From: Candidatus Atabeyarchaeum deiterrae
GTDB taxonomy: Archaea; Asgardarchaeota; Atabeyarchaeia; Atabeyarchaeales; Atabeyarchaeaceae
Length of the DNA: 64,000 bases
Assembly (NCBI GenBank): GCA_037310415.1
Contig: CP147780.1
Location: forward strand, 352,001-416,000
Direction: 5' to 3'
The position numbers and the translations under genes are program-made. The first letter of the stretch is position 1; each line of letters starts with the position of its first letter. A model generated the notes under the pieces. It did no database searches and was not told the DNA's origin. It saw nothing but the letters and a program-made list of their open reading frames with translations. Positions 45,196 to 45,313 of the stretch are shown in pieces.

Positions 45196-45313
45196 GCCGT
45201 GGTAGCCAAGTTCGGTTAAGGCGCGGGATTGGAGATCCCGTTCCCTTTATGGGAGCGCCGGTTCAAATCCGGCCCAATCCACTCGGACAATCTCCGCGTG
45301 GAGGCTAACGGCG
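45196..45313 (+). tRNA. tRNA-Ser(GGA) with a 32-nt intron in the acceptor stem (68/69; 45277-45308)
   Basis: GCCGTGG 5' strand; arm CGGGA-TTGGAGA-TCCCG; long variable arm; T arm GCCGG-TTCAAAT-CCGGC; 3' strand CCA^CGGC-G forms only after excision. Confidence 0.9.

What the first reader, a model, noticed from the sequence alone, without database searches (positions are those of the whole stretch)
45277..45308. Intron in the 3' strand of the tRNA-Ser acceptor stem (68/69)
Seen: CC-GGCC-CA^A-TCCAC...GTGGA-GGCT-AA^C-GG is a full helix-bulge-helix-bulge-helix. Excision yields CCACGGC-G, the exact complement of the 5' GCCGTGG, leaving a 3' exon of only 5 nt. I do not know of this position among commonly reported intron sites. 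Inference: splicing must precede end maturation by RNase P/Z and CCA addition, and the intron interrupts the tRNA 3' end that integrases typically target. tRNA scanners would call this gene truncated.
Basis: partly seen in the sequence, partly recalled or inferred. Interest (0 to 1): 0.8.

Follow-up and report, generated by a model that had tools for sequence, protein, structure and literature searches.

The report
Published acceptor-stem intron in tRNA-Ser
The only serine tRNA (anticodon GGA) gene of this Asgard archaeon (Atabeyarchaeia-2) really has a 32-base protein-spliced intron five bases before its end, but tRNAscan-SE already found this exact intron and it appears in a 2024 paper's table, so it confirms known biology.

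Summary
Observation confirmed. Window 45196-45313 (+) is a class II tRNA-Ser(GGA) gene. Its 3' acceptor strand is split between positions 68 and 69 by a 32-nt insert (45277-45308), and the insert junctions form a 3-4-3 bulge-helix-bulge (BHB).

- Removing the insert gives an 86-nt RNA that folds into a perfect cloverleaf. ARAGORN calls it tRNA-Ser(gga) only after in-silico splicing.
- Four other sequences carry the insert at the same site: Atabeyarchaeia-1, MAG LC30 and two metagenome contigs. Their helices are preserved and their loops diverge.
- The genome encodes two EndA paralogues, RtcB and a CCA-adding enzyme.

The novelty claim fails. The genome is Ca. Atabeyarchaeia-2. Supplementary Data 4 of Valentin-Alvarado et al. 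2024 (PMC11291895) lists this gene and intron at identical coordinates (397196-397313, intron 397277-397308), called by tRNAscan-SE 2.0.12 at 79.9 bits. Introns in the aminoacyl stem are already a named class. An earlier, unchecked note of this scan reports a 68/69 intron in a Bathyarchaeia tRNA-Asp.

Still untested: splicing in vivo, whether splicing must come before end maturation, and the integrase-shielding idea. One point I did not find discussed in the papers read: the BHB uses nucleotides 61-66, so it cannot coexist with the T stem.

Verdict: real, already known, low interest.

The parts
45196..45276 (+). 5' exon of tRNA-Ser(GGA), tRNA positions 1-68: 5' acceptor strand GCCGTGG, D arm, anticodon arm (GGA at 45231-45233), long variable arm, T arm, then C66 C67 A68
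   Evidence: Published tRNAscan-SE call 397196-397313; the window offset is 352000.
45277..45308 (+). 32-nt BHB intron between tRNA positions 68 and 69
   Evidence: Same coordinates (397277-397308) in Supp. Data 4 of PMC11291895. Present at the same site in four other sequences.
45309..45313 (+). 3' exon CGGCG: C69-C72 plus discriminator G73. It is followed by CCT, so CCA is not encoded here, whereas CCA is encoded in the four relatives.
45269..45274 (+). 5' strands of outer helix h (C61, C62) and central 4-bp helix H (G63-C66). These are the whole 3' strand of the T stem plus C66, so the BHB and the T stem are mutually exclusive.
45275..45277 (+). 5' bulge C67 A68 | A(intron 1); the cut falls after the second base
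45278..45302 (+). Intron hairpin h': UCCAC (45278-45282) pairs with GUGGA (45298-45302). An inner stem CGGA (45284-45287) pairs with UCCG (45293-45296). The loop varies between relatives.
   Evidence: One C-G to U-A double change, and one pair seen as C-G, U-A and U.G.
45303..45311 (+). 3' strand of H (GGCU, 45303-45306), 3' bulge A A | C69 (45307-45309), and 3' strand of h (G70, G71, 45310-45311)
   Evidence: In metagenome locus L095 GGCU is GGCC, turning the G63.U pair into G63-C.

Best explanation
This is the single tRNA-Ser(GGA) gene of Ca. Atabeyarchaeia-2, an Asgard archaeon. An archaeal endonuclease-type (BHB) intron of 32 nt interrupts it between positions 68 and 69 of the acceptor stem.

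Proposed mechanism:
1. In the precursor, nucleotides 61-66 (the 3' strand of the T stem plus C66) pair with the 3' end of the intron (GGCU) and with G70-G71 instead of forming the T stem.
2. That pairing, together with the intron's own hairpin, builds a 3-4-3 bulge-helix-bulge.
3. The splicing endonuclease cuts after the second base of each bulge (A68|A and A|C69). It is probably a two-subunit, crenarchaeal-type (alpha-beta)2 EndA.
4. RtcB joins the exons.
5. The T arm and a perfect 7-bp acceptor stem with G73 then form. In this genome CCA is added afterwards.

Shown here: the gene structure, the BHB geometry, its conservation in relatives, the cloverleaf of the spliced product, and the presence of the enzymes. 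Inferred: actual cleavage and ligation, the conformational switch, and any order relative to 5' and 3' end trimming.
For: - Sequence and local fold.
- The spliced product folds to a perfect class II cloverleaf. ARAGORN calls tRNA-Ser(gga) only after in-silico splicing.
- The same insert sits at the same site in Atabeyarchaeia-1, MAG LC30 and two metagenome contigs.
- In the tRNA-Ser(GGA) alignment of the five sequences the exons are nearly invariant; most substitutions lie in the intron, chiefly in its loop. 97.3% of BHB cells are paired, against 36-51% when the partners are slid. There is one compensatory C-G to U-A change, one pair seen as C-G, U-A and U.G, and one G.U to G-C change in H.
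- Random 32-mers meet the BHB geometry at a rate of 2e-4.
- Only one Ser(GGA) gene is present.
- The genome has two EndA paralogues. The best PDB hits of the first are the 186-aa chains 3p1z_B and 3ajv_B, which I recall as the Aeropyrum pernix catalytic subunit; the second also matches beta-like chains 2zyz_A and 3iey_B.
- RtcB and a CCA-adding enzyme are present.
- An independent tRNAscan-SE 2.0.12 call gives identical intron coordinates at 79.9 bits (PMC11291895 Supp. Data 4).
Against: - There are no RNA data for the spliced junction.
- With five closely related sequences the covariation is not statistically strong: 37 of 500 shuffles reach the observed percentage paired, and 88 of 500 reach the covariation score.
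- In the full-length precursor the BHB conformer is predicted at -44.2 kcal/mol. The MFE is -56.7 and a cloverleaf with the intron as a side hairpin is -50.3. The substrate conformer is therefore not the thermodynamically favoured one, and the enzyme would have to capture it.
- The outer helix h has only 2 bp.
Confidence: 0.9

Rival explanations
1. The gene is a 3'-truncated or decaying tRNA-Ser pseudogene that ends at ...CCAATCCA, as the Rfam alignment reads it, and the downstream BHB-like fold is chance.
For: The Rfam tRNA model aligns 45196-45281 end to end at 44 bits. ARAGORN finds no gene.
Against: - That reading has three mispaired acceptor pairs and A73 in place of G73.
- The downstream CGGCG is invariant in five sequences while the intron loop diverges.
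- The BHB geometry has a chance rate of about 2e-4.
- This is the only Ser(GGA) gene.
- Splicing yields a perfect cloverleaf.
Confidence: 0.03
2. The intron is real, and its position makes maturation strictly ordered: splicing must happen in a non-cloverleaf conformer before RNase P, tRNase Z and CCA addition can act.
For: The BHB consumes nucleotides 61-66 and 70-71, so it excludes both the T stem and the acceptor stem. RNase P and tRNase Z recognise the acceptor/T-arm minihelix (established knowledge). In permuted tRNAs, BHB processing precedes end processing (Soma 2007, as summarised in PMC4033280).
Against: - The BHB needs no leader or trailer bases, so trimmed ends would not prevent splicing.
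- A cloverleaf-like conformer is predicted to be more stable than the BHB conformer (-50.3 vs -44.2 kcal/mol). In it the acceptor stem is 4 + 3 bp with the intron as a side hairpin, and it might still be trimmed.
- No experiment bears on the order.
Confidence: 0.3
3. The intron persists because it breaks up the 3' part of the tRNA gene that integrases of mobile elements use as an attachment site, protecting the gene from integration.
For: Only the general hypothesis, mentioned in PMC3239211 and PMC4390854, that integration at tRNA loci is linked to tRNA gene disruption.
Against: - The gene sits in a conserved housekeeping cluster (cmk, cbf5, methyltransferase, tRNA-Ser, methyltransferase, rps13, rps4, rps11) with no integrase or att-like repeat nearby.
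- No related copy of the intron exists elsewhere in the genome.
- The 2026 preprint found no general link between Asgard tRNA introns and mobile elements (abstract).
Confidence: 0.05

Closest known systems
The same intron as published: tRNA #10 of 'SRVP_Atabeyarchaeota_2_curated.FINAL' and tRNA #8 of Atabeyarchaeota_1, in Supplementary Data 4 of Valentin-Alvarado et al. 2024, Nat Commun 15:6384 (PMC11291895)
   Same: Identical gene and intron coordinates: 397196-397313 with intron 397277-397308, which equals window 45196-45313 with intron 45277-45308. Ser GGA, one intron by tRNAscan-SE 2.0.12 and by R2DT, 79.9 bits. The sister genome is listed at 385378-385498 with intron 385458-385490, which matches G001.
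   Different: The paper only tabulates coordinates. It does not state the tRNA position (68/69), the 5-nt 3' exon, or the clash between the BHB and the T stem.
Non-canonical BHB introns of archaeal tRNA genes (Thermoproteales and others), including the acceptor-stem 3/4 intron (Sugahara et al. 2008, as cited in PMC4090602) and 'aminoacyl stem' introns (PMC3241643, citing its reference 4)
   Same: Same motif (3-4-3 BHB), same enzyme family ((alpha-beta)2-type EndA plus RtcB), the same need for a non-cloverleaf precursor fold, and also located in the acceptor stem.
   Different: This one lies in the 3' strand, five bases from the mature end, in an Asgard archaeon. The position lists I could read (20/21 ... 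59/60 and 3/4) do not include 68/69. The primary catalogues (Marck & Grosjean 2003; Sugahara 2008) are not held, so I could not check them.
[quoted passage not shown]
   Same: The same lineages (Atabeyarchaeia and Jordiarchaeia), with repeated intron gains at BHB-competent sites. [quoted passage not shown]
   Different: Its supplementary tables are not held, so I could not confirm that this locus is among them.
   Same: Same tRNA position and the same kind of intron, according to that note.
   Different: A different tRNA and phylum. It is an unchecked AI note and I did not verify it. That note proposes help from the 3' trailer, whereas here the BHB uses no trailer bases.

Membership tests
Archaeal EndA-spliced (bulge-helix-bulge) tRNA intron | Two 3-nt bulges on opposite strands, separated by a 4-bp helix and flanked by helices h and h' | tested here: met
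   h is 2 bp, H is 4 bp (one G.U pair), h' is 5 bp plus a 4-bp inner stem. The bulges are CA|A and AA|C. The chance rate of this geometry is 2e-4.
Archaeal EndA-spliced (bulge-helix-bulge) tRNA intron | Cutting after the second base of each bulge and joining the exons restores a complete, canonical tRNA | tested here: met
   The 86-nt product folds into a perfect class II cloverleaf with a 7-bp acceptor stem and G73. ARAGORN calls tRNA-Ser(gga) on it.
Archaeal EndA-spliced (bulge-helix-bulge) tRNA intron | The genome encodes the splicing endonuclease and the RtcB ligase | tested here: met
   Two PF01974 genes (104 and 70 bits) with PDB matches to archaeal EndA chains. RtcB at 582 bits.
Archaeal EndA-spliced (bulge-helix-bulge) tRNA intron | The motif is kept in relatives, with structure-preserving changes | tested here: met
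   Five distinct sequences, 97.3% of cells paired, one double compensatory change. The shuffle controls are not significant with so few close sequences.
Archaeal EndA-spliced (bulge-helix-bulge) tRNA intron | The intron is actually removed in the cell | not testable with these tools
   No listed RNA run holds the stretch, and nothing was laid on it.
Acceptor-stem (aminoacyl-stem) non-canonical introns | The splice site lies within positions 1-7 or 66-72 | tested here: met
   The site is between A68 and C69. The register is fixed by relatives whose intron ends in AG.
tRNA gene disruption linked to integrating mobile elements | An integrase, att repeats or element remnants lie beside the interrupted tRNA gene | tested here: not met
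   The neighbours are cmk, cbf5, two methyltransferases, rps13, rps4 and rps11. There is no second copy of the intron or its flanks in the genome.

The most novel reading that the evidence does not exclude
The 68/69 intron, with a 5-nt 3' exon, may be among the most 3'-proximal BHB introns. Its BHB is built from the whole 3' strand of the T stem, so the precursor has to be spliced in a non-cloverleaf conformer. That would impose an obligatory order: splicing before RNase P, tRNase Z and CCA addition. I found no such enforced order documented for an archaeal tRNA in the papers I could read.
Probability: 0.25. Interest if true: 0.4.

Novelty: already known. Interest (0 to 1): 0.2.

Why it matters
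This is a clean, comparatively supported example of how far archaeal tRNA introns can move towards the 3' end of the gene. It also shows that ARAGORN and the plain Rfam tRNA model fail on such genes while tRNAscan-SE 2.0 succeeds. Because the gene, the intron coordinates and the lineage-wide intron load are already published, it adds no new biology. The small open point is biochemical: how EndA captures a BHB that competes with the T stem, and whether that fixes the order of maturation steps.

Tried and rejected
- RNA evidence: no RNA holder was listed for 45150-45360. Laying four metatranscriptome runs (X1, X5, X6, X7) on the stretch gave nothing. This is uninformative either way.
- Literature on 68/69: the search tools cannot match a slash, and 'position 68' plus 'tRNA intron' plus 'archaea' found no paper. 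The reviews I read list many positions but not 68/69. Marck & Grosjean 2003, Sugahara 2008 and Tocchini-Valentini 2011 are not held. The supplements of the 2026 preprint are not held.
- Intron transposition: blastn-short of the intron and its flanks against the whole genome found only 12-nt chance matches.
- Wider distribution: BLAST of exon 1 against 400 genomes of the phylum matched only seven genomes including this one. The Ser tRNAs recovered outside the family (G006 twice, G150, G018) have uninterrupted 3' acceptor strands. BLAST is too insensitive for intron-rich tRNAs, so this does not show absence elsewhere.
- Collection scans with the T-arm/CCA...CGGCGCC pattern mostly hit high-GC bacteria by chance. 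Only 4 of the 93 loci with a match were true homologues.
- Rejected splice registers: the RNAfold MFE register (3-bp H, bulges CAA and UAA) would give CCAACGGCG. A shift to 67/68 fits this genome, but it would give G68 in relatives whose intron ends in AG.
- I checked whether the hidden tRNA-Asp of this genome also has a 68/69 intron.

Full report
**What is there.** Window 45196-45313 (+) holds a class II tRNA gene.

| Element | Window coordinates |
|---|---|
| 5' acceptor strand GCCGTGG | 45196-45202 |
| Anticodon GGA (loop TTGGAGA) | 45231-45233 |
| T arm GCCGG-TTCAAAT-CCGGC | ends at 45273 |
| C66 C67 A68 | 45274-45276 |
| 32-nt insert | 45277-45308 |
| C69 G70 G71 C72 G73 | 45309-45313 |

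A D arm and a long variable arm complete the gene. ARAGORN finds no gene here, with or without its intron option. The Rfam tRNA model aligns 45196-45281 at 44 bits with three mispaired acceptor pairs.

- Outer helix h: C61-G71 and C62-G70.
- Central helix H: G63.U, G64-C, C65-G, C66-G.
- Bulges: C67 A68|A and A A|C69.
- Intron helix h': UCCAC/GUGGA, with an inner stem CGGA/UCCG.

RNAfold of 45266-45314 gives a BHB-like MFE of -18.6 kcal/mol (z = -2.6).

I placed random genomic 32-mers at this site. They met the H plus h' (4 bp or more) geometry in 0.02% of 200,000 trials.

Cutting after the second base of each bulge gives an 86-nt RNA. Its MFE is a perfect cloverleaf with a 7-bp acceptor stem and G73. 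ARAGORN calls tRNA-Ser(gga) on the spliced sequence and nothing on the unspliced one.

**Comparative evidence.** Both other genomes of the same family carry the insert at the same place, at 93% and 86% identity over the whole gene. A pattern scan of public genomes and metagenomes named them as Atabeyarchaeia-1 (CP147779.1) and MAG LC30. It also added two metagenome contigs, L086 and L095.

- Across the five distinct sequences the exons are almost invariant and the intron loop diverges.
- 97.3% of BHB cells are paired, against 36-51% when the 3' partners are slid by one to three columns.
- One pair changes C-G to U-A, and another is seen as C-G, U-A and U.G.
- The G63.U pair of H becomes G-C in L095.
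- With five close relatives the shuffle controls are not significant. I count this as consistent rather than proving.
- Relatives whose intron ends in AG fix the splice site at 68/69 rather than 67/68.
- Ser tRNAs recovered outside the family (G006, G150, G018) have uninterrupted 3' strands. The published Freyarchaeia Ser(GGA) has its introns elsewhere.

**Machinery.** The genome encodes two EndA paralogues.
- The first best matches the 186-aa PDB chains 3p1z_B and 3ajv_B, then 2cv8 and 2zyz_B. As I recall, these are crenarchaeal catalytic subunits.
- The second matches 1a79 and, weakly, the beta-like chains 2zyz_A and 3iey_B.

[quoted passage not shown] RtcB and a CCA-adding enzyme are present. 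CCA is not encoded after G73 here (the sequence is CCT), but it is encoded in the four relatives.

**How it most likely works.** The BHB uses nucleotides 61-66, which are the whole 3' strand of the T stem plus C66, and also G70-G71. It therefore cannot coexist with the T stem or the acceptor stem.

| Precursor conformer (full length) | Predicted energy |
|---|---|
| BHB-constrained | -44.2 kcal/mol |
| Cloverleaf with the intron as a side hairpin | -50.3 kcal/mol |
| MFE (intron GGCUA pairs with U8-C12) | -56.7 kcal/mol |

EndA must therefore capture a minor conformer, as is generally assumed for non-canonical introns. After cleavage and RtcB ligation, the T arm and acceptor stem form. The four base pairs that hold the 5-nt 3' exon to the 5' strand are all G-C. 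Cleavage, ligation and the order relative to end trimming are inferred, not shown.

**Comparison with what is known.** The window is G000:C1:352001-416000 of a 2,756,679-bp single-contig genome. Supplementary Data 4 of Valentin-Alvarado et al. 2024 (PMC11291895) lists, for 'SRVP_Atabeyarchaeota_2_curated.FINAL', tRNA #10 at 397196-397313. It is Ser GGA with intron 397277-397308, Infernal 79.9 bits, and one intron by both tRNAscan-SE 2.0.12 and R2DT. After the 352000 offset these are exactly the coordinates of the finding. Atabeyarchaeota_1 tRNA #8 (385378-385498, intron 385458-385490) matches G001.

- The paper reports that 92-95% of tRNA genes in these genomes contain introns, often at non-canonical positions.
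- A 2026 preprint analyses the phenomenon across 90 Asgard genomes and mentions a few intervening sequences in the acceptor stem.
- The tRNAscan-SE 2.0 paper describes extending candidates by 60 nt to catch introns near the ends.
- Introns in the aminoacyl stem are named as a class in PMC3241643. Position 3/4 is cited as an extreme case in PMC4090602.
- I could not find 68/69 named in any text I could read, and the primary catalogues are not held.
It is unchecked and I did not test it.

- 'Scanners would call it truncated' is true for ARAGORN and Rfam but false for tRNAscan-SE 2.
- 'Splicing must precede end maturation' is plausible because of the clash with the T and acceptor stems. It is not forced, because the BHB needs no leader or trailer and a cloverleaf-like conformer exists.
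- The integrase idea has no support here. The gene lies in the housekeeping cluster cmk, cbf5, methyltransferase, tRNA-Ser, methyltransferase, rps13, rps4, rps11. The intron has no relatives elsewhere in the genome.

**Verdict.** This is a real BHB intron at 68/69 in an essential, single-copy tRNA-Ser(GGA) gene. It is already annotated and published for this very genome. Interest is low. The residual open point is biochemical: how the substrate conformer is captured and in what order maturation proceeds.

Noticed in passing
window 43448-44490 (+), insert 43677-43717: cbf5 (archaeal dyskerin-type pseudouridine synthase) is split into two ORFs. The first holds the DKCLD domain and ends GHGGTLE-stop; the second holds the rest of TruB_N, TruB_C_2 and PUA. 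Removing 41 nt restores [16 protein letters not shown], so this looks like a BHB-type mRNA intron of the kind known in crenarchaeal cbf5.
   Followed up: partly
window 45314-45316; L002, L003, L086, L095: The base triplet after G73 is CCT in this genome but CCA in all four relatives. The 3' CCA of tRNA-Ser(GGA) is therefore genome-encoded in the relatives and must be added enzymatically here.
   Followed up: partly
whole genome (G000) and Supp. Data 4 of PMC11291895: The published tRNAscan-SE list for this genome has no tRNA-Asp, tRNA-Cys or tRNA-Ile(GAT), and tRNA-Asp is also missing for Atabeyarchaeia-1. Essential tRNAs remain hidden. Earlier notes of the scan place a tRNA-Asp about 152 kb, and a tRNA-Cys about 1.1 Mb, beyond the window's end.
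   Followed up: no
G000:C1, e.g. 378418-378525 and 243848-243938: ARAGORN with its intron option mis-assigns many of this genome's interrupted tRNAs. It calls Leu(aag) where tRNAscan-SE calls Ala(GGC), and Trp(cca) where tRNAscan-SE calls Arg(CCG). It finds only 24 genes.
   Followed up: no
window 45203-45207 with 45303-45307: In the MFE of the full precursor, the intron's GGCUA pairs with U8-C12 (the junction and the D-stem 5' strand) rather than with the T-stem strand. The U-to-C change in L095 weakens this alternative pairing and strengthens the BHB helix, which suggests selection acts on the BHB pairing.
   Followed up: partly
G000:C1:638493-638530 (-): The paralogous tRNA-Ser(CGA) gene matches query positions 37-73 (anticodon stem 3' strand, variable arm and T arm) at 89%. 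An earlier unchecked scan note (e1-4831484) gives it the same acceptor stem, three introns elsewhere and an uninterrupted 3' strand. If that holds, the 68/69 intron is specific to the GGA isoacceptor.
   Followed up: no
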